Shown one piece after another: positions 187 through 25,204 of a DNA stretch of 32,149 nt. How positions within the stretch are numbered: the stretch's first letter is position 1; the number at the start of each line of letters is the position of its first letter. The position numbers were made by a program, and so were the translations under genes. Source of the stretch: a virus (taxonomy: Duplodnaviria; Heunggongvirae; Uroviricota; Caudoviricetes); the IMG/VR virus record IMGVR_UViG_3300025000_000058. One strand, written 5' to 3'. The notes under the pieces were generated by a model. That model was not told the origin of the DNA, ran no database searches, and was given only the letters and a program-made list of their open reading frames with translations.

Positions 187-295
187 AATTAATAAATTAA
201 CTATATTTTCAGAGGATAGAACAGGCATCTATCATCATATATTTTGAAGATGTGGGACATGTCACCCCACCTAAAATATAGTTAATTTATTAATT
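187..295 (+). ncRNA. Candidate structured RNA: three-arm junction closed by a 23-bp stem
   Basis: Perfect inverted repeat AATTAATAAATTAACTATATTTT (187-209) / AAAATATAGTTAATTTATTAATT (273-295). It encloses GATAG-AACAGGCAT-CTATC (215-233), a weak middle arm, and GTGGG-ACATGTCAC-CCCAC (252-270). Strand is inferred from neighbouring genes. Confidence 0.4.
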
Positions 296-498: not shown

Positions 499-525
499 AT
501 TATTATTATTATTATTATTATTATT
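499..525. repeat. (ATT)9 microsatellite
   Basis: Nine perfect ATT units between the tRNA-Ser CCA and the AAGGAGG ribosome-binding site of the next gene. Confidence 0.95.
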
Positions 526-556
526 AAAATTAAAAGAATAAAAGGAGGAATTTACA

Positions 557-1186
557 ATGGCACAAATGACAATTACGAGAGTGCTTGCAGAAATAGACGT
601 TTTAAATAAGAGGATTGAAAAAGAAACAAGGAATGCAAGATTTATTGCATGTGTTAAAAATACTGCAACAAAAGTTGATGGAGTGCAAACAAAAGCAGAA
701 TTTTCAAGTTCAGCACAATCTAGTTATGATTCAATTATAGATATGATTGAAAAGAGAAAAAAATTGAAAGCCAAGTTAGTTATGTCAAATGCTACAACAA
801 TTGTTAATATTTGCAACAAGGATTATTTTGTAGCTGAAGCAATTGAAAGAAAAAATATGATTCATCTTGAGCAAGCATTGATTGCAGAAATGGTTAGTCA
901 ATATAACAAAATGGTTGCAAATTATAACAGAAAAGCAGAAGAATTAGATGGTAGGTATGATGAATTTTTAAGAACATTAGGTGTTAAAGATAGTAAAAAT
1001 ATCAGTGAAACAATGCTAGAAGCAGGAAAGAATTTCTTGGCAGAGAATGGATGGTCAATTTTAGATCCAATTAAATTAAAAGAGAAAATTGATGCATTGA
1101 CAGATGAAGTTGAAAATTTCATGAAAGAAGTTGATTTCACTTTAAGTGAATGTAATAGTTTGACTAAAATAGAAATTGAAGAATAA
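557..1186 (+). CDS. Conserved-type hypothetical helical/coiled-coil protein (possibly DIP1984/DUF6847-like), paired with a downstream structured RNA
   Basis: Strong SD AAGGAGG at 542-548. The 209-aa protein has a two-fold internal repeat: TITRVLAE...SNATTIVNI and YFVAEAIERK...CNSLTKIEI. Family resemblance is from memory of the 'AEA' and 'N..T' motifs and has not been verified. Confidence 0.85.
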   Translation: MAQMTITRVLAEIDVLNKRIEKETRNARFIACVKNTATKVDGVQTKAEFSSSAQSSYDSIIDMIEKRKKLKAKLVMSNATTIVNICNKDYFVAEAIERKNMIHLEQALIAEMVSQYNKMVANYNRKAEELDGRYDEFLRTLGVKDSKNISETMLEAGKNFLAENGWSILDPIKLKEKIDALTDEVENFMKEVDFTLSECNSLTKIEIEE

Positions 1187-1214
1187 CAATATTGAAGAGA
1201 AATTTATTGAAGAT

Positions 1215-1573
1215 TATTAATTAAATTTATATTGTGGGTTATTTGAAAATGATAAAATTCAAATTCCTTTGAGATATAGGTTAATTATCTCACTTTGTTC
1301 TTTTGATATAAAAAAGAAGAAATTATTTAAGTGCATCTATTAATGCATTTACATATAATAGATATTATGTATATTTATACACTAAATTTATTAGAAAGAT
1401 CAAAGTTTAAAGATTAAAGTACAAAGATTACATTTCAAAGTTCTTTTTGTTAAAGATTAAGTTTCAAAGCATAAAGATCGATGAAATCCAAGGGATAAGG
1501 TTATAGACATTAATTTGTTTAGTCTGTCATTTCCTCTTGGCTGAGTAATTCACAATATTAAATTTAATTGATA
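1215..1573 (+). ncRNA. Candidate ~350-nt structured ncRNA or 3' UTR element
   Basis: Long closing helix: AATTAAATTT-ATATTGTG-GGTTATTT (1219-1244) pairs with GAGTAATT-CACAATAT-[T]-AAATTTAATT (1543-1569), including G-U pairs. Hairpins at 1270-1292, 1298-1318, 1329-1350 and 1350-1371, an unpaired AAAG tract at 1395-1479, and a 3' arm CCAAG-GGA (1488-1495) / TCC[T]CTTGG (1532-1540) enclosing TAGAC/GTCTG. No ORF in the track on either strand. Confidence 0.7.
1395..1479 (+). repeat. Phased AAAG-NNN heptamer tract
   Basis: AAAG at 1395, 1402, 1409, 1416, 1423, 1437, then 1452, 1466, 1473. These form two blocks in exact 7-nt register with variable 3-nt linkers. Confidence 0.9.
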
Positions 1574-1601
1574 TAAATTTAGCAGGCACTTATTTTATCC
1601 A

Positions 1602-1625
1602 TGAAGGAGTTAATTAACTTCTTCA
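1602..1625. other. 10-bp hairpin just upstream of tRNA-His (processing or stability element)
   Basis: TGAAGGAGTT-AATT-AACTTCTTCA. No U-tract follows, so it is not a convincing terminator. Confidence 0.45.
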
Positions 1626-1629
1626 ACAT

Positions 1630-1706
1630 GGTAGTGTAGATGAAATAGGTTGACATGCCAAACTGTGAATTTGGATTAGTGGGTTCAAATCCCGCACACT
1701 ACCCCA
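1630..1706 (+). tRNA. trnH: tRNA-His(GTG)
   Basis: Encoded G-1 (1630) opposite C73 (1703), acceptor GTAGTGT/ACACTAC, anticodon arm CCAAA-CTGTGAA-TTTGG, T arm GTGGG-TTCAAAT-CCCGC, CCA at 1704-1706. Confidence 0.92.
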
Positions 1707-1707
1707 T

Positions 1708-1784
1708 TTCCTTGTAGCATAATGGATAATGCACAAGATTACGGATCTTGGTTTATCTGGGTTCAAATCCTAGCAAGGAAGCCA
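1708..1784 (+). tRNA. trnR: tRNA-Arg(ACG)
   Basis: Acceptor TTCCTTG/CAAGGAA, D arm GCAT-AATGGATA-ATGC, anticodon arm CAAGA-TTACGGA-TCTTG, T arm CTGGG-TTCAAAT-CCTAG, G73 plus CCA. Confidence 0.94.
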
Positions 1785-1789
1785 ATTAT

Positions 1790-1861
1790 GCTCCTCTAGT
1801 ATAAAGGCTATTATAGTTGACTTGTAATCAATAGATTCCAGTTCGATTCTGGAGAGGAGCT
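1790..1861 (+). tRNA. trnT: tRNA-Thr(TGT), CCA not encoded
   Basis: Acceptor GCTCCTC/GAGGAGC, anticodon arm GTTGA-CTTGTAA-TCAAT, T arm TCCAG-TTCGATT-CTGGA. Followed by T then TCA instead of CCA. Confidence 0.9.
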
Positions 1862-2193: not shown

Positions 2194-2238
2194 GTTGTAT
2201 AGTTTTGTATTAATAAATGAATGAAAGGAGTGTTTAAT

Positions 2239-3438
2239 ATTTCAACAGAATTAGAAACACCAGTAAAAAAACCAAGGGGCAGACCTCCAGGTAAAAGTAC
2301 TACAACAGCTACAAAAATAAAAACTAAGCAAGCACCAAGAAGAAATGAATTAGAACCATTAATAATAAAGCCAATTGGCTTAAAGTGTGAATATTGTGGA
2401 AAAACAAAAAAATCACATCATTTTAATAGATGTATTTTTAATAAAACTGGATATGAAGTTTATTGTAAAGAATGTAAAAATAGTTTAGTTACAGATAAAC
2501 AAGAATTAATAGAATATTTAGAATTGAATAATATGCGATTCAGTGAAGAATTGTGGGATGAAAGTGAAAAATGGATTAGATACCATATGGATTTAAGATT
2601 AGAAGGTGTTGAAGAATTACCAGAAGACATTAATGAAAAAGTGATGAAAAAAATAGTAAATCGTTATTATTCAGTAAAGGGTTTAAATGGAAATAGGGTT
2701 GGTTATCATCCAGATGATAAAGCCAGAGATGAAGAAAATAAAAAAGTATTTGACAATATCTCTCCAGATGATGAAATATTTAAAAATGATGGAGGTATTA
2801 TTCAAAGGAGAAAAAGAAAAGTGAATTCTCCAGTAGAATATATTGATTATGGTTTAGAAAAAAAATGGGGAAAAAATTATAATCAAGAAGAATATGAAAA
2901 ATTAGAAGGTTTTTATCAAGATATGAAAGCAAATTTTGAGATAGAAACTGCGGCTCATATTGATTATCTTAAAAAGATTTGTAAAGTTTCAGTGCAAATG
3001 GATAAAGCATTGGAAGAGAATAACATTGATGTGTTTCAGAAATTAAGTGGTATATATGATAAATTAATGCATAGTGCCAAGTTTACAGCAGTTCAAAGAA
3101 GTGCTTCAGATAGAACAGGTGGTATGAATACTATAGGTGAGATATATGATTTTTTAGAAAAAAATGGATTTATACCAAAATTTCATACAGATGAACCACT
3201 TGATATTGTTGATATAACAGAACACAACCTTAAAGAATATACAAAAAAATTAGTACTTGGAGATACTAATATAGCTAATATTATTGAATCATCAATACAA
3301 AAAATTATAGAAAAAGAAGAATTAGAAAGAAATAATTTAGAAGAAGATGCAAAAACTGTAGAAGAGTTAGAAGATGAAGATGAAGAATATGAAAGTTATA
3401 TAAAAGATTATGATTATGAGGTCAATAAAGATGGCTAA
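2239..3438 (+). CDS. Putative terminase small subunit with AT-hook and CxxC-x22-CxxC zinc finger
   Basis: Directly upstream of and overlapping terL. PRGRP at 2272-2286, CEYC...CKEC at 2386-2475, helical C-terminal half with acidic tail. The track ATG at 2221 has no SD, whereas AAGGAGTG (2225-2232) is well spaced to an in-frame ATT at 2239. Confidence 0.7.
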   Translation: MSTELETPVKKPRGRPPGKSTTTATKIKTKQAPRRNELEPLIIKPIGLKCEYCGKTKKSHHFNRCIFNKTGYEVYCKECKNSLVTDKQELIEYLELNNMRFSEELWDESEKWIRYHMDLRLEGVEELPEDINEKVMKKIVNRYYSVKGLNGNRVGYHPDDKARDEENKKVFDNISPDDEIFKNDGGIIQRRKRKVNSPVEYIDYGLEKKWGKNYNQEEYEKLEGFYQDMKANFEIETAAHIDYLKKICKVSVQMDKALEENNIDVFQKLSGIYDKLMHSAKFTAVQRSASDRTGGMNTIGEIYDFLEKNGFIPKFHTDEPLDIVDITEHNLKEYTKKLVLGDTNIANIIESSIQKIIEKEELERNNLEEDAKTVEELEDEDEEYESYIKDYDYEVNKDG

Positions 3439-20400: not shown

Positions 20401-23400
20401 ATTTACTTATGCTATGTCTGGCATAATAAAATATATAGATAATTTAATTAATAAAACAGAAAAAGCTAAACAAGCATTTGAAGAATTAAATAATGAAACA
20501 CTTAATCTTAGAGATGAAATATCTGACTCTCAAAAATTAATTAAAATATATGATGAATTATCAAAAAAAGCAACATTAACAGCAGAAGAAAAAGATAGAC
20601 TTGCAGATGCAACTGAAAAATTAGCAACATTATATCCAAATGCAATTGAATTATATGATGCAGAAGGAAAAGCAATAGATTTAAATAAAGATAAATTAAA
20701 TGAGTATCTTAAAGTTAAAGAAAAAGAATTAGAATATAAACGTCAAGAATTATCTGCAAGCTATAATAAATCAGCAGATCAAGATGTTACTACTATAAAT
20801 AATAATATTAAATCAATAGAAAATTATAATAATGAATTAAAAGAATTAGAAGAACAAAAAAATAAATGGATTCAACTGGGAAAAGCAAATAAATCTAATA
20901 ATGTTTACCAAGATATATTAAGTGATATAGAAAAAATTACTAAAGAGAGAAATAAATTACAAAATGAAACAAATAATTTAATAGAAAATAATAAAACTGG
21001 TTTAAAAGCAGTATTACAAGGCACTGACGGTTTTAAAAATTTAAATACACAAGAATTAAATAATTTTATAAACTCATTAATGAGCATTAAAGATATTTAT
21101 AAAGAGATAGAAAAAAATGGTGCTCAGACATTTGGAGATAAAATTACGAAATCTGGCTTTATTAATGCTTATAACGATATTAATAAAGAATTTAATAAAC
21201 TAAGTAAAAATACAAATAGAACACAACAAGATATAGATAATTTTAATAATAATGCTGTAAATAAATTAACACAAAACTTACAACAATTTGGCAGTATTAC
21301 AGGCAACATAGCAGAAAATATTATTAAGAATCAATTTACTTTATCAGTAATTGAAGCAAAAGAAAATATTGTAGACTTTAGCAACGCAATAGAGTTAATT
21401 CAAAATACAACAATAGAAACTTCAGATAAAATAGAATTATATAATCAAATACTAGAAAAGTCAAAAGAATCAAATAATGATGCGGCTCAAGAAGTAATGA
21501 AACATGTAGATAAACATAAAGATTTATACGATGTTGTTCAAGTAGAAAACGGAATACTAGTATTAAATACAGCAAAATTAAATGACTTAAAAAATAAAAC
21601 TATTGAAACAGCAATTGCTACAAATAATGCAGAAATCAATAAAGCAAAAATAGTTTCTACACAAACTACAGCCAGATTAGCTCAATACCAATTAGAAATA
21701 GAAAAATTAAATACATTATTAAAAATCCAAGAAGCATATCTAAAAATAAGTAATTCTTTATATACTCAATATTCTACTGGCAAAATAGATAATAATGAAT
21801 TATTTAGTAAATTAGATCAAGCAAAAAAAGATGTTACTGATATTTATGTCGCTAATAGATTAGATAGTTTAAAGAATATGAATGATGCCGAAAAATTATT
21901 TGAAGAATGGAAAACAGAAAGAGGATATTCTAGCGATATTAAAGATTCAAAAGAAATGTCGGCAATGCGAGATAAAATTTATGGATATGTTGAATTAAAA
22001 CAAGCGGTAGAGAAAGCTAATGCAGTTATTAATACTCCTAATCTTGGAGTTAAAGACTCATACTCCACATCAGACGCAAAATCAGCAGAATCCCTAGTAT
22101 GGGAAATAGTAACAAATGAAATAAAAAAATACGATAATGCTCTTAAATCACTAGAAGACACTACTTCTAATATGGTCAAAGGTTCTAAAGCACGTAGAGA
22201 TTCCCTACATGCTGAAAATCTTAAAATAAAGGAGCAAATTGATTATTTAAAAGCACAAAAAGATGGATTGGATACTATATCAATTATATCTAATTATTCA
22301 GCAAGTAATGGTAAATTGCCTAATCCAATACCTGGCACACAATTAAAAGATTCCTTTGGAGCACCTAGAGATGGTGGTGCTCGTAAACATGAAGGAATTG
22401 ACATAATGGCTGATAGAGGTACTGAAATACATTCAACTACATCTGGTAAAGTATTAAGTGCAGGAAATACTGGTGCTAAAGGTGGTTGGGGTGTAACTAT
22501 TTCTGACCCTCAAGGTAACACACATTATTATGCACATATGAATACTGATCCTAGTAAAATATTAGGGATTGGGCAAGAAATATTAGCAGGACAAGTAATT
22601 GGATATGTTGGAGATAGTGGCAATGCTAAAGGTGGAGCAACACATTTACATTATGGGATTAAAGATTCTAATAATAAAGCAATTAATCCTTATGATTTAT
22701 TAACAAATGATATATCTACACAAAAATCTGTAACAGTTAACACTTCACAATCTGCTATAAATAAATATGGTATATCACCTGAGATTGTTAATACTGTATT
22801 ATCTCTTGCACAGAAATATAATGTTGATCCTGCATTAATACTAGCAATTGGAGAACAAGAAACAAATTGGGGCAAATCAGGTGATGGTAAGAAAGGAATG
22901 TACCTTGGCTATGGATCATATGATTCAGGATCAGATTATAGCCAAGCAGGATTAGAAAATCAAGTTGAAAAAGCTGTTAAGAAAATGAAAGCTTGGGGTA
23001 TGAGTCCAGGTAATGTTAGTTTTGATAGATTAAATCAAGGTAATAATGGCAATTTGCCTACTGGTATATATGCTACAAGCAATGAATGGCAAAATGGTGT
23101 ATGGAATCTATATAAAGAGTTTTCAAATGGTCAAATGACAACAGCACTAAGTGGTGGTTTGTCTAAATCAGAATTATCATACGAAAAATTAGTAGAAGAC
23201 CGTATTAAGCACCAAGAAGAAATAAACGCTAAAATACTAGAACTAGAGAAAAAATTTGCTCAAAATTCTAAAGATTGGTATACAGATTTATGGCAAGAAT
23301 CAGATAATATTATTAATGAATTTGAGCAGAAAAGCAATTTCTCTAAAATGTTTTCTGAAAGTATGTCTAAATCATCACCAGAATATAGGGAACAATTAAG

Positions 23401-25204
23401 TATACAAAAAAATAATACAATAGGTGTTCAGACTCAATTAGCAGAACAAGCTAAACAAATGGATCAAGCAATAGAAAATATGAAAAAAGGAATCACAGAA
23501 GGTACTTTTAAAGATGAGCAATTTTTAAAAGAAACAATAGAGAAAAGGAAAGCATTGTCTGCTGAGTGGTGGAATAAACAAAAAGAAATATCTGATAAAC
23601 AAGCAGAGATAACATCCAGCGAAGTTGAAGAAGTAACAAATAAGATAAATGAATATAATAATGTAATAGCAATTTCTCAATCACAACAGGAAATGAATGA
23701 AAAAGGAACAAATGAATATAATAATGCCTTAAAAGAAGAAGTTATTCAATATTCTAATATAGAATCTGCTTTAAAAGCAAAACAAGCAATATATCAAAAA
23801 GAGTTAACAGATACTTTTGTTGGCACTCTAAGATATGAAGAATTACAAAGAGCAATAAATGACACAACAAAAGAAATAATAGACAATGAAAAAGCATTAT
23901 ATGATAAAAAGAAACAAATTATAGATTATGCAATAGAAACAATAAAAAAAGCATATGAAAAACAAAAAGATATAGCAATAGATGCAATTGAAGAACAAAT
24001 TGATGTAGAAAATGAAAGGCATAAACGAGTAAAAGAAAACATAGAAGATGAATCAAACCAATATAAAGAATCAGTAAATCAAAGGATAAAATTACTTGAT
24101 GAATTATCTGATAAAGAAAATTATGAAGCAGATATTAAAAAACTGAATGAAGAAAAGTTAGATATTCAAAAACAAATAGAATCATATGCTAATGACGATT
24201 CTTATGAAGCCAAATCAAGAAAAGAAGAATTGTCAAAACAATTGTCAGATAAAGAATTAGAAATACAAAAAGCACAAAAACAAAGAGAATTAGAATTAAG
24301 AAAAGATTCTTTAAATGATCAGTTGGATAAATATGAAAAAGAAGTTAAAGAGAAAGAAAAGGCTGAAGATAATAAGTATGATGCAGAAAAAGAAAGATTA
24401 GAAAAAATAAAAAATGATACAGAAAAACATTATCAAGATTTGATTGACAACGAACTTAACTATACTAATATTAGTAAAGAATTGATGAAAGGAAATATAG
24501 ATAATACTATTTCAGAACTACAAAGATTATTAATATTTGTTAAAAATAATATTAGTAATTTAGGTTCAGGAGTTGGTAATACTCTTGCTAATGAAATAAA
24601 TAATAGTATTGAACAAATAACAGGCAATTTAGGGAGTAACAATAATACAAATACAGGCAATACAGGAAGTAATACTACTCAACATAGTCAATATTATCCT
24701 TGGAAAACACAAATAAACCATATTATATATGATAAAAAAATGTGGCAACAAGGATATGAAACAGGAAATCAACAAATGATGCTTGATGCTGAAAATGAAG
24801 CAAAAATTTATTATGATCAAATACCAGATTATATTGCAAAATTATTACAAAGTATGAATTATAATAGTGCAAATGCATGGTATAAAACAAACGTATTTCA
24901 TAAAGGAGATGTAGTTGGTGGTACAGGTTCGAAAGAAGCTGAATTAATTGATAAAATATTTAATAAAGGGCAAAATGAACATATAAGTAAATTATTAAAA
25001 GGAGAAGTAGTATTATCACATTCTGCAATACAAAGAGTTGCACCTATATTAAATGCAGTAAATACTCCTTCTGTAAATGGAGGGAATAGTACTGTATATA
25101 ATTTAGAGATGTATATTGCTAATGTTAATGGAAATAAAGAAGGGGCGAACTTATTATTTACTGAAGTGAAAAAAGGAATTAATAAATTAGGAAAAAAATA
25201 TTAA
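17444..25204 (+). CDS. Tail tape measure protein with M23 peptidase and lysozyme/transglycosylase-like domains
   Basis: 2586 aa, largely coiled coil. TP901-type core at about 18900-19900. M23 motifs HEGID (22388) and HLH (22643). AQKYNVDPALILAIGEQETNWG lysozyme-like motif at about 22807-22872. C-terminal FHKG...GEVVLS motif. Confidence 0.93.
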   Translation: MNDMLSMQVSAILNITQKDLQTQLNTIRQQINETPLEIKINIDKTILSDLKEFTKAVKDINIVHKEQKQVIREEIDVIKELDGVTKTYTKTVLANGVVKERIKNVVDKNKQAIIDATKAEGKVLDELTSKYGKLTNEVIRKNAAEKETSRSMTYKDLNGRMTTVNTAGGKSTSFVERYNKEAQDRLIANLEVYKSRLNNALDKSINTITKQTAGKIDTTQLTKLKTDLNGLNVGLPNLDKSMKTINQDIKNTINNIKLEIAELNRLDVIQAQKNKFINGLTRMSNNNTTSMYMSQEEINNVKKLINSLNDLNKTSLQKIRDEIAKLGQTASNRMFTTRTLQSLEIEKTKLSDSLNKLTNSNIGKLIPETEINKVKLLISEFNTLDKVKLQNIKNQIGNLRQEANKLFDMQQAQKTLDIYKRQAEINVQSANRKYSGLVNVEELKKYQQAVNALKVNPNIQNQMAQLSMRYREITESAKNSASAMNTASKSAMTFGQSLKVAFEKFPIWIIASTAVMDFIHKIQDAFSYMLEMSQLFTNLQMEMTEKNLNFDEITESTVRYANALSSTSSEVMKAISVFGTYTSTMEQVLQRSEAAIVLANISGRSMLEVSDDLMSAQIQFKKGADELMGVVDTYASVARNLQVDFPKALGEISAGMKYVGTVATEAKIPLEDLSAMLGTLIETTRRSGQQVSNGLKTIVSRISNVGDEVNPEDFKKIEKTFNDVGVSIKKDAETIRPVNDILKDMADKWETISDVQQQQIAKDAAGIYQRNIFLALMKNYNKVLENTESAYNSQGVALSKQEIFARSLTASINQLTNSWQQFYLSVINNNVTKTLIDSSKLMLDSFTNLSDSIGGLPLVLTTALLGTSMFFSGFRNKMNTVIGEINSVKALQAKNITPSFTMGNVGVYSATLTKLITGVKTFNSNLNASKIAFATTYGTMPTKLESIKLGFNALTMGIRGTTVATLALRTATVAWQTVATLGLAVAFTYAMSGIIKYIDNLINKTEKAKQAFEELNNETLNLRDEISDSQKLIKIYDELSKKATLTAEEKDRLADATEKLATLYPNAIELYDAEGKAIDLNKDKLNEYLKVKEKELEYKRQELSASYNKSADQDVTTINNNIKSIENYNNELKELEEQKNKWIQLGKANKSNNVYQDILSDIEKITKERNKLQNETNNLIENNKTGLKAVLQGTDGFKNLNTQELNNFINSLMSIKDIYKEIEKNGAQTFGDKITKSGFINAYNDINKEFNKLSKNTNRTQQDIDNFNNNAVNKLTQNLQQFGSITGNIAENIIKNQFTLSVIEAKENIVDFSNAIELIQNTTIETSDKIELYNQILEKSKESNNDAAQEVMKHVDKHKDLYDVVQVENGILVLNTAKLNDLKNKTIETAIATNNAEINKAKIVSTQTTARLAQYQLEIEKLNTLLKIQEAYLKISNSLYTQYSTGKIDNNELFSKLDQAKKDVTDIYVANRLDSLKNMNDAEKLFEEWKTERGYSSDIKDSKEMSAMRDKIYGYVELKQAVEKANAVINTPNLGVKDSYSTSDAKSAESLVWEIVTNEIKKYDNALKSLEDTTSNMVKGSKARRDSLHAENLKIKEQIDYLKAQKDGLDTISIISNYSASNGKLPNPIPGTQLKDSFGAPRDGGARKHEGIDIMADRGTEIHSTTSGKVLSAGNTGAKGGWGVTISDPQGNTHYYAHMNTDPSKILGIGQEILAGQVIGYVGDSGNAKGGATHLHYGIKDSNNKAINPYDLLTNDISTQKSVTVNTSQSAINKYGISPEIVNTVLSLAQKYNVDPALILAIGEQETNWGKSGDGKKGMYLGYGSYDSGSDYSQAGLENQVEKAVKKMKAWGMSPGNVSFDRLNQGNNGNLPTGIYATSNEWQNGVWNLYKEFSNGQMTTALSGGLSKSELSYEKLVEDRIKHQEEINAKILELEKKFAQNSKDWYTDLWQESDNIINEFEQKSNFSKMFSESMSKSSPEYREQLSIQKNNTIGVQTQLAEQAKQMDQAIENMKKGITEGTFKDEQFLKETIEKRKALSAEWWNKQKEISDKQAEITSSEVEEVTNKINEYNNVIAISQSQQEMNEKGTNEYNNALKEEVIQYSNIESALKAKQAIYQKELTDTFVGTLRYEELQRAINDTTKEIIDNEKALYDKKKQIIDYAIETIKKAYEKQKDIAIDAIEEQIDVENERHKRVKENIEDESNQYKESVNQRIKLLDELSDKENYEADIKKLNEEKLDIQKQIESYANDDSYEAKSRKEELSKQLSDKELEIQKAQKQRELELRKDSLNDQLDKYEKEVKEKEKAEDNKYDAEKERLEKIKNDTEKHYQDLIDNELNYTNISKELMKGNIDNTISELQRLLIFVKNNISNLGSGVGNTLANEINNSIEQITGNLGSNNNTNTGNTGSNTTQHSQYYPWKTQINHIIYDKKMWQQGYETGNQQMMLDAENEAKIYYDQIPDYIAKLLQSMNYNSANAWYKTNVFHKGDVVGGTGSKEAELIDKIFNKGQNEHISKLLKGEVVLSHSAIQRVAPILNAVNTPSVNGGNSTVYNLEMYIANVNGNKEGANLLFTEVKKGINKLGKKY

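What the first reader, a model, noticed from the sequence alone, without database searches (positions are those of the whole stretch)
1395..1479. AAAG-NNN heptamer register: invariant tetramer with variable linkers
Nine AAAG motifs lie in exact 7-nt phase in two blocks (1395, 1402, 1409, 1416, 1423, 1437 and 1452, 1466, 1473). The linkers differ (ATC, TTT, ATT, TAC, ATT, TTC, ATT, CAT, ATC), and skipped units (1430, 1459) keep the register. Slippage repeats would copy the linkers too, so spacing and the AAAG core appear to be what is conserved. By analogy with TRAP binding spaced (G/U)AG repeats around a ring, this looks like a multivalent single-stranded landing track for an oligomeric protein, plausibly the product of 557..1186.
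Basis: partly seen in the sequence, partly recalled or inferred. Interest (0 to 1): 0.75.

Follow-up and report, generated by a model that had tools for sequence, protein, structure and literature searches.

The report
Conserved heptamer track in phage RNA
The AAAG-every-7-bases tract is real: it is the most conserved, apparently unpaired core of an undescribed ~330-base structured RNA that always follows one small helical-protein gene in hundreds of phages (T5 included) and prophages, and it looks like an ordered docking track for many copies of a protein.

Summary
Observation confirmed and extended. The nine in-phase AAAG motifs exist as described and exceed chance. The tract is not a slippage repeat. 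It lies inside a ~330-nt RNA element (window ~1219-1569, + strand) closed by a covarying helix, with a 5' H-type pseudoknot candidate and a covarying 3' hairpin. A covariance model of the tract plus 3' domain hit 88 of 88 viral or phage loci that carry the neighbouring gene (phrog_1491; T5.085 in phage T5). It also hit 79 of 80 independent bacterial-genome loci, always downstream on the gene's strand, and hit nothing else in six whole phage records. Across 40 non-redundant members, conservation itself has a 7-nt period. The first two A's and the U two bases upstream of each unit are near-invariant, and the other positions vary. There are 11 units (7, a linker, then 4) at fixed spacing, and no tract column covaries with a pairing partner. 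The family motif is U-Y-A-A-(A-G)-N rather than AAAG. No Rfam family and no paper I could find describes it. The neighbouring protein is predicted to form a homodimer, but binding to the RNA is untested. The landing-track idea is therefore partly supported. HutP and the T4 gp32 operator are closer analogies than TRAP. This scan found the same family earlier on other DNA (e1-5804244).

The parts
557..1186 (+). Gene of the 209-aa helical protein (phrog_1491; homologue of T5.085). It is the obligate upstream neighbour of the RNA.
   Evidence: PHROGs E 6.8e-61. tblastn finds it in 742 phage records. AlphaFold model has pLDDT 90.4. No Pfam, NCBIfam or PADLOC family matches. Homodimer predicted at ipSAE 0.65 against a best control of 0.00.
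1219..1244 (+). 5' strand of closing helix P1. The conserved core is 1233-1244; this phage extends it outward to about 1219.
   Evidence: MFE fold has z = -5.07. All 11 core pairs show compensatory changes among 40 sequences.
1266..1292 (+). H-type pseudoknot candidate: CCT 1266-1268 pairs with AGG 1278-1280, and TGAGATA 1270-1276 pairs with TATCTCA 1286-1292.
   Evidence: The same interleaved pattern occurs in 40/40 family members against a mean of 17.3/40 in shuffles. Both stems differ in sequence between lineages (CCC/GGG, CGC/GCG, CGT/ACG, GGC/GCC).
1293..1392 (+). Variable hairpin region. Its length and sequence are not conserved in the family.
   Evidence: Gappy columns 100-270 of alignment A3. 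Three hairpins in the MFE fold.
1395..1443 (+). Heptamer block 1: seven units starting at 1395, 1402, 1409, 1416, 1423, 1430 and 1437.
   Evidence: Unit-to-unit distance is 7 in 40/40 sequences at four of the six junctions in this block, and 7-8 at most others.
1444..1451 (+). Linker between the blocks (U-C-U-U conserved from 1442). Other lineages carry a UUCG or GAAA tetraloop hairpin inserted here.
   Evidence: The distance 1437->1452 is 14-17 nt in 29/40 sequences and 20-39 nt where a hairpin is inserted.
1452..1479 (+). Heptamer block 2: four units starting at 1452, 1459, 1466 and 1473.
1480..1492 (+). Invariant junction GAUGAAAUCC followed by the 5' strand of helix Pa (CCAAG 1488-1492).
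   Evidence: A1485, A1486 and C1488 are invariant in 40/40, and the distance 1473->1485 is 12 nt in 40/40. Pa is 98.5% paired, with 4 of 5 pairs changing on both sides.
1502..1527 (+). Inner hairpin of the 3' domain.
   Evidence: RNAalifold. Its pairs are among the top covarying pairs in the independent set.
1536..1569 (+). 3' strand of Pa (CTTGG 1536-1540), invariant GCUG (1540-1543), and the 3' strand of P1 (1543-1554, extended to about 1569).
1631..1861 (+). tRNA-His, tRNA-Arg and tRNA-Thr directly downstream. This is context, not part of the element.
   Evidence: ARAGORN and Rfam.

Best explanation
Shown: the tract is the sequence-conserved, apparently single-stranded core of a ~330-nt structured RNA. 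This RNA is transcribed on the + strand together with the upstream gene 557..1186, either as its 3' UTR or as an RNA processed from it. The RNA has a closing helix, a 5' pseudoknot candidate, variable hairpins, and 11 units of U-Y-A-A-(A-G)-N at 7-nt spacing. The units run as 7, a short linker or hairpin, then 4. An invariant AAAUCC junction and a 3' hairpin domain follow. Inferred: the 11 in-register units form a lattice on which identical protein modules dock side by side, one per unit, each reading the invariant U..AA. The structured flanks would hold the lattice open and fix its ends. The most likely occupant is the dimer-forming helical protein encoded just upstream. Because gene and RNA lie on one transcript, it could load in cis onto its own mRNA and give a defined ribonucleoprotein particle made early in infection. 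What the particle does is unknown.
For: (1) Periodicity exceeds chance in the window and in the genome. (2) A homologous element sits right after the homologous gene in Clostridium phage D-1873 and other named phages: phiCD211, Brevibacillus Jenst, Vibrio Brizo, Pseudomonas UNO-G1W1 and T5. (3) Covariance model R1 (tract plus 3' domain) hits 88/88 gene-bearing viral or phage loci. It hits 0 of 6 control loci. It hits 79/80 independent bacterial-genome loci. All hits lie on the gene's strand, downstream. There is exactly one hit per whole record in six phage genomes. (4) RNA-level selection is clear. P1 plus Pa are 91.3% paired against 57.7% in shuffles, with covariation 0.873 against 0.239 (0/500 shuffles as high), and slid controls reach 0.235 or less. 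G-U pairs occur on the + strand only, and the + strand folds better (z -5.07 against -3.71). Intrinsic terminators directly follow the element in Gram-negative phages and in Jenst. (5) Information content has a 7-nt period. The first and second A of each unit and the U two bases upstream score 1.1-2.0 bits, while the other positions fall as low as about 0.0. The independent set of 80 shows autocorrelation peaks at lag 7 (0.41) and lag 14 (0.38). (6) Unit number and spacing are fixed: 7 nt in 40/40 at five junctions, and a 3' half of 165-175 nt in most members. The only indel seen among close relatives is one 17-nt deletion. (7) No tract column has a covarying partner, and RNAalifold leaves the tract open. 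(8) The neighbouring protein is predicted to homodimerise. ipSAE is 0.65 against a best control of 0.00. That mark was reached by 20 of 30 solved homo-pairs and 1 of 23 single chains. The runs agree in at least 94% of contacts, and pLDDT is at least 87. The alignment was my own, so the calibration holds only roughly. (9) There is precedent for the logic. The T4 gp32 operator combines a pseudoknot with an unstructured run of UUAAA/UAAA repeats that the protein coats cooperatively (PMC535899).
Against: No binding, expression or processing data exist for any family member. The protein is mildly acidic (window pI 5.4; family median 5.6; net charge about -2.5). It has no recognised RNA-binding fold. 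Its best solved match is 3kdq_A at Z 11.3, a protein of unknown function. Several conserved basic residues (R67, K71, R98) lie inside the predicted dimer interface, so they may serve dimerisation rather than RNA contact. Single-sequence thermodynamic folding gives the tract a pairing probability of 0.5-0.6, no lower than its surroundings. Single-strandedness therefore rests on the absence of conserved pairing, not on energetics. Gene-RNA linkage would also arise if the RNA were only a cis-acting 3' UTR, or if the two bound a common third partner.
Confidence: 0.5

Rival explanations
1. Host-factor sponge. The tract binds and titrates a host single-strand RNA-binding protein or ribonuclease (for example RNase E or Y, a cold-shock protein, Hfq, S1 or an SSB-type protein), or a defence nuclease. 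The neighbouring protein would then be a chaperone, or functionally separate.
For: Many identical exposed sites on one stable scaffold is the design of the CsrB/RsmZ sponges (established knowledge). The element occurs in phages of both Gram-positive and Gram-negative hosts. The gene lies in the early/tRNA region of T5, which fits a host-takeover role. The neighbouring protein is acidic.
Against: A host partner shared by Clostridia, Bacillales, Vibrio, Pseudomonas and E. coli would have to read the same U..AA at 7-nt spacing, and no such factor is known to me. The 167/168 linkage with one phage gene is left unexplained.
Confidence: 0.2
2. RNA architecture without a protein lattice. The conserved U..AA units make repeated tertiary contacts within the RNA (A-minor contacts or base triples). 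Alternatively they mediate RNA-RNA multimerisation, as in the large cage-forming ROOL and GOLLD RNAs of phages.
For: Invariant adenosines in formally unpaired strands are typical of tertiary contacts. ROOL and GOLLD are phage-associated, lie near tRNA genes and self-assemble (my own knowledge, not checked here). The RNA is knotted and closed by P1.
Against: The RNA has only about six helices to receive 11 regularly spaced contacts. The helices between P1 and the tract vary in number and length, whereas the tract does not. The strict 7-nt register with free intervening bases is more typical of protein footprints. No Rfam large-RNA family matches.
Confidence: 0.12
3. T-loop decoy. Read from the preceding G, the family unit is G-U-U-C-A-A-A. 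These are the letters of tRNA G53-T54-Psi55-C56-R57-A58, in a 7-nt unit the size of a T loop. The tract would present 11 stem-less T-loop-like sites to a factor that reads tRNA elbows or T loops.
For: The invariant tract positions correspond to U55, R57 and A58. The element often lies among phage tRNA genes.
Against: Known T-loop readers need the T stem and the folded elbow (established knowledge). 22 of 30 prophage loci examined have no tRNA gene within 2 kb. UUCAAA is an unremarkable A/U-rich word. The window's own units are mostly GAUYAA.
Confidence: 0.06
4. DNA-level site: heptad iterons bound by a DNA-binding protein. Examples would be an operator or centromere like the omega-protein heptads of pSM19035, or a replication origin.
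For: Contiguous 7-bp repeats in two blocks resemble omega-type heptad arrays (my own knowledge). Several carriers are plasmid-like prophages (D-1873, phiCD211).
Against: The flanking helices covary with G-U pairs on one strand only. The element is always on the gene's strand and is followed by a terminator. It is equally conserved in strictly lytic phages such as T5. The neighbouring protein has no DNA-binding family match.
Confidence: 0.03
5. Decaying microsatellite with no function.
For: The genome is A/T-rich. TRF finds weak 7- and 14-nt periods. One 29-nt internal near-duplication is visible: AAAGATTACATTTCAAAG at 1423 and AAAGATTAAGTTTCAAAG at 1452.
Against: The same 11 units at the same spacing persist across loci of 20-60% G+C and across hosts from Clostridia to Pseudomonas. 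Conservation is position-specific and there is no copy-number variation.
Confidence: 0.01

Closest known systems
T4 gene 32 translational operator (bound by gp32)
   Same: It has a 5' RNA pseudoknot and an unstructured stretch of more than 40 nt carrying several UUAAA/UAAA repeats. Protein monomers coat this stretch cooperatively, and both parts are needed (PMC535899). Here there is a pseudoknot candidate and 11 U-Y-A-A-A units. From my own knowledge, the gp32 site size is about 7 nt.
   Different: The operator lies in the 5' leader, overlaps the ribosome-binding site and regulates an OB-fold SSB gene. Here the element lies 3' of a helical, non-SSB gene and is closed by a long helix. About 100 nt of hairpins separate the knot from the tract, and the tract has a fixed number of units. 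No sequence homology was tested or claimed.
HutP and the hut mRNA of Bacillus subtilis
   Same: From my own knowledge: a ring protein reads NAG triplets separated by 4 nt, giving a 7-nt period, in two blocks separated by a linker. That matches the period and the two-block layout seen here.
   Different: HutP reads 3+3 UAG sites in an antiterminator leader. Here there are 7+4 units whose invariant letters are U..AA. There is no terminator/antiterminator alternative, and the neighbouring protein has no HutP family match.
TRAP and the trp leader
   Same: From my own knowledge: 11 repeated short motifs on single-stranded RNA wrap around an 11-subunit ring. Eleven units are counted here too.
   Different: TRAP reads (G/U)AG with 2-3-nt spacers, a 5-6-nt period. 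The motif, period, location and protein all differ here. The neighbouring protein is a helical dimer, not a beta-sandwich ring.
CsrB/RsmZ-type protein sponges
   Same: Many copies of a short motif on one stable non-coding RNA sequester many copies of one protein (established knowledge).
   Different: Sponge motifs (GGA) sit in hairpin loops at irregular spacing and vary in number. Here the units are contiguous, in strict register and fixed in number.
ToxI-type antitoxin RNAs (type III toxin-antitoxin)
   Same: A tandemly repeated RNA is encoded next to the gene of the protein that binds it. Phages carry such systems (PMC8860590, seen).
   Different: ToxI repeats are about 34-36 nt, lie upstream of an endoribonuclease toxin and are cut into units. 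Here the units are 7 nt, lie downstream and are embedded in a larger fold. The protein has no PADLOC or toxin family match.
RAGATH-27 RNA motif (Rfam RF03100), named closest known by an earlier report of this scan
   Same: An orphan candidate RNA of unknown function.
   Different: Searched directly in the window's genome and four phage records that carry the element. No match at the element even at E <= 10, and the best hits elsewhere score 12-15 bits against a cut-off of 76.1.

Membership tests
Any Rfam 15 family (4227 models) | Covariance-model match at or near the gathering score | tested here: not met
   No match over window 1187-1630 at E <= 5. None over the element in D-1873 or in six other phage loci at E <= 1.
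RAGATH-27 (RF03100) | Match to the 86-position model (cut-off 76.1 bits) | tested here: not met
   No hit at the element in five records. Background hits score 15.5 bits or less.
TRAP-binding RNA | 9-11 (G/U)AG triplets separated by 2-3 nt | tested here: not met
   The period is 7 (sometimes 8) and the invariant letters are U..AA. G is only moderately conserved.
TRAP-binding RNA | A TRAP (MtrB) protein is present | tested here: inconclusive
   The neighbouring protein has no Pfam hit of that family. The rest of the genome and the host were not searched.
HutP-binding RNA | Two sets of three UAG motifs separated by 4 nt, in a terminator/antiterminator leader upstream of the regulated operon | tested here: not met
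   The 7-nt period is shared, but the motif is not UAG. The element has 7+4 units, lies 3' of the gene, and forms no alternative terminator structure.
gp32-type translational operator | Pseudoknot 5' of an unstructured run of UUAAA/UAAA repeats | tested here: met
   The pseudoknot pattern occurs in 40/40 members against 17.3/40 in shuffles. There are 11 U-Y-A-A-A units with no conserved pairing. The pseudoknot was not counted on an alignment, and about 100 nt of hairpins lie between the two parts.
gp32-type translational operator | Lies in the 5' leader, overlaps the RBS of an SSB gene, and is bound by that SSB | tested here: not met
   The element lies 3' of a non-SSB helical-protein gene. 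No start codon or RBS lies inside it.
Type III toxin-antitoxin RNA | Tandem repeats of about 34-36 nt upstream of a ToxN/AbiQ-type endoribonuclease gene | tested here: not met
   The units are 7 nt and lie downstream. The protein has no PADLOC hit and a helical fold.
Omega-type heptad operator/centromere (DNA) | 7-bp repeats acting as double-stranded DNA, strand-independent, bound by an RHH protein | tested here: not met
   Conservation is strand-specific, with G-U-compatible covariation in the flanking helices. There is no RHH or other DNA-binding family in the neighbour.
New family defined here (heptamer-track RNA plus phrog_1491 gene) | R1 match immediately downstream of a phrog_1491 gene on the same strand, with the P1 closing helix and 7+4 units | tested here: met
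   Window 1391-1559 scores 128.5 bits, E 5.8e-24. P1 and Pa pairs are present. The units are counted.

The most novel reading that the evidence does not exclude
The gene and RNA encode an obligate, previously unrecognised phage ribonucleoprotein. Eleven in-register U-Y-A-A-A-G-N units would template an ordered array (ring or short filament) of the neighbouring helical dimer, held between a pseudoknotted 5' domain and a 3' hairpin domain. This particle type would be conserved from T5 and Felix-O1-like coliphages to Clostridium and Bacillus prophages and made early in infection. It may exploit the T-loop-like GUUCAAA letters of its units to engage the host's tRNA machinery or tRNA-directed defences.
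Probability: 0.35. Interest if true: 0.9.

Novelty: categorically new. Interest (0 to 1): 0.8.

Why it matters
If the reading holds, a very widespread phage module has gone unannotated. It occurs in 742 phage records by protein match, including the model phage T5, and in many Bacillales and Clostridia prophages. The module would be a structured RNA whose core is a fixed 11-site, 7-nt lattice, paired with a protein family of unknown function that is currently mislabelled 'tail fiber protein'. It would add a new example of how a short RNA register can measure out a protein assembly, alongside TRAP, HutP and the gp32 operator. It would also assign a function to conserved non-coding DNA in the tRNA/ncRNA-rich early regions of large phages, which hold several orphan RNAs (skipping-rope, drum, the T5 stable RNAs). 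Because T5 and E. coli carry it, every prediction is testable at the bench with standard tools. Even if the protein-lattice idea is wrong, the RNA family itself is a solid new entry for RNA databases. Its support includes covarying helices, a specific covariance model, and presence in 167 of 168 loci that carry the gene.

Tried and rejected
1. blastn of the spacer against 50,697 phage records found no match.
3. Loci of terminase relatives (60-80% identity) lack the gene, the tRNAs and the tract, so synteny with the packaging genes is not conserved.
4. A scan of viral contigs for five in-phase AAAG gave more than 118 unrelated hits, mostly tandem repeats in giant-virus contigs. It was uninformative.
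6. Sequencing runs: no RNA holder is listed. The DNA contigs of X1 and X3 are identical to the window over 1100-1700. One X5 contig covers 1144-1400 and ends there, and nothing of X5 is laid between about 1400 and 1658. This gave no variants and no expression data.
7. The promoter-like site at 1348-1375, just upstream of the tract, is no more than chance (15 sites found, 15.8 expected) and falls in a variable hairpin.
8. Single-sequence pairing probabilities do not single out the tract.
9. Structure searches with the protein model gave only proteins of unknown function: 3kdq in the PDB, and uncharacterised phage proteins in BFVD. A faint NCBIfam DIP1984-family hit (E 0.068) and atlas leads to DUF6847 were not followed further.
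10. Paper searches by motif, by T5 locus tag and by family names found nothing describing the RNA or the protein. This covers only the open-access library.
11. I first judged nine loci and Bacillus phage KLEB27-3 to lack the element, based on a crude AAG-phase count. The covariance model found it in all of them.
Full report
**1. The observation.** The window is part of a 165,697-bp, roughly 26% G+C virus record from groundwater. Between the stop of ORF 557..1186 and tRNA-His (1631) lies a 444-nt spacer with no ORF of 30 aa or more. AAAG starts at 1395, 1402, 1409, 1416, 1423 and 1437, and, shifted by one base, at 1452, 1466 and 1473. AAAGNNNAAAG occurs 10 times in the window against 5.35 +/- 2.43 expected, and half of those lie here. 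I scanned all tetramers at periods 5-12 over the whole genome. Only four arrays fill 6-7 of 7 slots, and ten third-order Markov genomes never exceeded 5. Tandem Repeats Finder scores the tract weakly, so it is periodic without being a clean tandem copy.

**2. Relatives.** Direct DNA searches and close-relative protein searches found nothing. The upstream protein belongs to phrog_1491 (E 6.8e-61) and has tblastn matches in 742 phage records. In the best match, Clostridium phage D-1873, the homologous gene (44% identity) is followed by an unannotated gap. That gap aligns with the window's spacer and has the same closing-helix sequences: ATATTGTG(G/A)GTTAT...TGAAAA at the 5' end and TAATTCACAAT at the 3' end. 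It also has a 7-nt periodic run, AAAGTTC AGAGTTA TAAAGTTC AAATTTC and so on. A periodic tract followed by a conserved AAATCY motif also appears after the gene in:
- Clostridioides phages phiCD211 and ES-S-0107-01
- Brevibacillus phage Jenst
- Vibrio phage Brizo (T5-like)
- Pseudomonas phage UNO-G1W1 (Felix-O1-like)

An earlier first-reader note on this window (e1-5446769) had pointed to the closing helix. I tested that lead below.

**3. A family, and how tightly it is tied to the gene.** A protein-profile scan of viral contigs gave 80 loci, from which I aligned 40 non-redundant elements of 275-388 nt (A3). I built a covariance model of the tract plus 3' domain (R1, 171 positions).
- R1 hit all 88 loci that carry the gene: the window, 7 named phages and 80 viral contigs. 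These include nine loci, and Bacillus phage KLEB27-3, that I had first judged to lack the element.
- R1 hit none of six terminase-only control loci.
- In an independent set of 80 bacterial-genome loci, R1 hit 79. These are mostly Bacillales and Clostridia and look like prophages; none were used to build the model. The exception, L313, has the 5' part and the first block and is then interrupted by unrelated sequence.
- Every hit is downstream of the gene on its strand.
- Six whole phage records, 707 kb in total, have exactly one hit each.
- In T5 the gene is T5.085. The RNA lies in the unannotated gap after it (record 43143-43316 for the 3' half, E 4.8e-11). It is not one of the stable RNAs annotated in T5.
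- tRNA genes flank the pair in large lytic phages but are absent within 2 kb in 22 of 30 prophage loci examined. The conserved link is therefore gene to RNA, not RNA to tRNA.

**4. It is an RNA.** RNAalifold finds an 11-bp closing helix P1 (window core 1233-1244 with 1543-1554) and a 5-bp helix Pa (1488-1492 with 1536-1540). 15 of the 16 pairs in these two helices show compensatory changes. Counted formally, 91.3% of cells pair against 57.7% in shuffles. Covariation is 0.873 against 0.239 (0 of 500 shuffles as high), and partner-slid controls reach 0.235 or less. Changes such as A-U to G-U are tolerated on the + strand only. The + strand folds better than the - strand (z -5.07 against -3.71). 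In Gram-negative phages and in Jenst an intrinsic terminator follows the element directly. The 5' domain holds an H-type pseudoknot candidate, present in 40/40 members against 17.3/40 in shuffles. In the window, CCT 1266-1268 pairs with AGG 1278-1280, and TGAGATA 1270-1276 pairs with TATCTCA 1286-1292. Both stems differ in sequence between lineages. I did not count this knot on an alignment. No Rfam family matches. RAGATH-27, which an earlier report of this scan named as closest, does not match the element in five records.

**5. The tract within the family.** Column information content has a strict 7-nt period.
- The first A of each unit is invariant or nearly so (40/40 at 1416, 1430, 1437, 1452 and 1466).
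- The second A scores 0.7-1.8 bits.
- The U two bases upstream of each unit is near-invariant at most units (40/40 at 1400 and 1407).
- The third A and the G are moderately conserved.
- The remaining two positions are nearly free.

The family motif is therefore U-Y-A-A-(A-G)-N, and the window happens to have an unusually regular AAAG version. That gives 11 units: seven, a linker, then four.

Spacing between unit-first columns is 7 nt in 40/40 sequences at five junctions and 7-8 nt at most others. The linker distance (1437->1452) is 14-17 nt in 29/40 sequences. In the rest it carries an inserted hairpin, often with a UUCG or GAAA tetraloop. The distance from the last unit to the invariant AAAUC is 12 nt in 40/40. 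The 3' half is 165-175 nt in most members. The independent set of 80 shows the same consensus, with autocorrelation peaks at lags 7 and 14. Among close relatives the only indel is one 17-nt deletion between two TTCAAAGTT copies. This pattern is the opposite of a slippage-prone microsatellite.

**6. Is the tract unpaired?** RNAalifold leaves it open. An all-against-all covariation scan of the independent alignment singles out only Pa and the inner hairpin. No tract column stands out. Single-sequence thermodynamics are uninformative, with P(paired) of 0.5-0.6 as elsewhere in this A/U-rich RNA. So the tract is conserved in sequence and register, not in pairing.

**7. The protein.** The AlphaFold model is confident (pLDDT 90.4). 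It shows a long helical bundle capped by a small sheet made of the N- and C-terminal strands and a hairpin. It has no Pfam, NCBIfam or PADLOC family. Its solved and viral structural neighbours are of unknown function. The 'tail fiber' label looks unfounded, since in T5 the gene lies in the early/tRNA region. A homodimer is predicted at ipSAE 0.65 against a best control of 0.00. That mark was reached by 20 of 30 solved homo-pairs and 1 of 23 single chains. The runs agree in at least 94% of contacts and pLDDT is at least 87. I used my own alignment, so the calibration holds only roughly. The family is mildly acidic (median pI 5.6) but has seven conserved basic positions.

**8. Mechanism.**
- *Shown:* a conserved structured RNA, co-oriented and almost certainly co-transcribed with one gene, whose core is an 11-unit, 7-nt-register, sequence-specific tract that does not covary with any partner.
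- *Inferred:* such a pattern, with two to three invariant bases per 7 nt, free bases between them, and fixed unit number and ends, is what repeated docking of identical protein modules produces. Known examples are TRAP, HutP and the gp32 operator. The gp32 operator also couples a pseudoknot with UUAAA/UAAA repeats (PMC535899).
- *Most economical partner:* the neighbouring dimer-forming protein, which could load in cis on its own transcript.

I put the RNA family and periodic core at about 0.9. I put a protein lattice at about 0.55 and the neighbouring protein as the partner at about 0.4. The whole statement gets 0.5. The rivals are a host-factor sponge, RNA-only architecture, a T-loop decoy, DNA iterons and a dead microsatellite. 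They are weighed in their own sections, and the last two are essentially excluded.

**9. Novelty.** I found no Rfam family, no annotation in 48 Otagovirus records or in T5, and no paper in the searchable library. The library is open-access only, so a description elsewhere cannot be ruled out. An earlier follow-up of this scan (e1-5804244) reached a similar reading on another genome. I confirmed independently its points on the periodic core, the T5 occurrence and the gene linkage. I did not confirm its RAGATH-27 comparison.

Noticed in passing
window 204-278 and 311-388: Two skipping-rope RNAs (Rfam RF02924; 47.4 and 37.0 bits) lie directly ahead of tRNA-Ser (401-496). Brevibacillus phage Jenst has a skipping-rope RNA between the phrog_1491 gene and the heptamer RNA (L146:3125-3202). 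D-1873 has a drum RNA about 400 nt after it (L126:4407-4514). Orphan phage RNAs cluster around this module.
   Followed up: partly
window 1398-1479 (family consensus): Read from the preceding G, the family unit is G-U-U-C-A-A-A. These are the letters of the tRNA G53-T54-Psi55-C56-R57-A58 motif, in a 7-nt unit the size of a T loop. The invariant tract positions match U55, R57 and A58. This may be coincidence.
   Followed up: no
L318 (phage T5, NC_005859) 23144-23500, minus strand: T5 carries the element in the unannotated gap after T5.085 ('tail fiber protein', record 43505-44143). It is not among the eight 'stable RNAs with unknown functions' annotated in the T5 record. The tail-fibre label looks unfounded, because the gene sits in the early/tRNA region.
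   Followed up: partly
L140 / L150 (c-st-like UViG 641736147): A 17-nt deletion between two TTCAAAGTT copies at the linker between the blocks is the only length change seen among the five close relatives of D-1873.
   Followed up: no
L296 2726-2924 and 3071-3282: A Parabacteroides MAG contig has two tandem matches to the RNA model after one gene. It is the only duplicated case in 168 loci.
   Followed up: no
L313 2820-2900: In Desulfogranum japonicum the gene is followed by the 5' part of the RNA and a first heptamer block. Unrelated sequence then replaces the rest, probably an insertion in a decaying prophage.
   Followed up: partly
L145 4644-4861 (Bacillus phage vB_BauM_KLEB27-3): Here the RNA lies 1.5 kb downstream of the gene, in an unannotated gap. 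Three small annotated ORFs lie in between. This is the widest separation seen.
   Followed up: no
window 499-526: A perfect (ATT)9 microsatellite lies between tRNA-Ser and the ribosome-binding site of ORF 557.
   Followed up: no
window 1600-1626: A 10-bp hairpin (GAAGGAGTTAATTAACTTCTTC) without a T run sits just before tRNA-His. It may be a processing signal rather than a terminator.
   Followed up: no
window 2221-3438: The 405-aa ORF ahead of the large terminase gene matches phrog_3314 (unknown function). Its N-terminal four-cysteine region gives weak hits to Lar-like and HNH/endonuclease VII families. It may be a small-terminase-like or zinc-ribbon DNA-binding protein.
   Followed up: no
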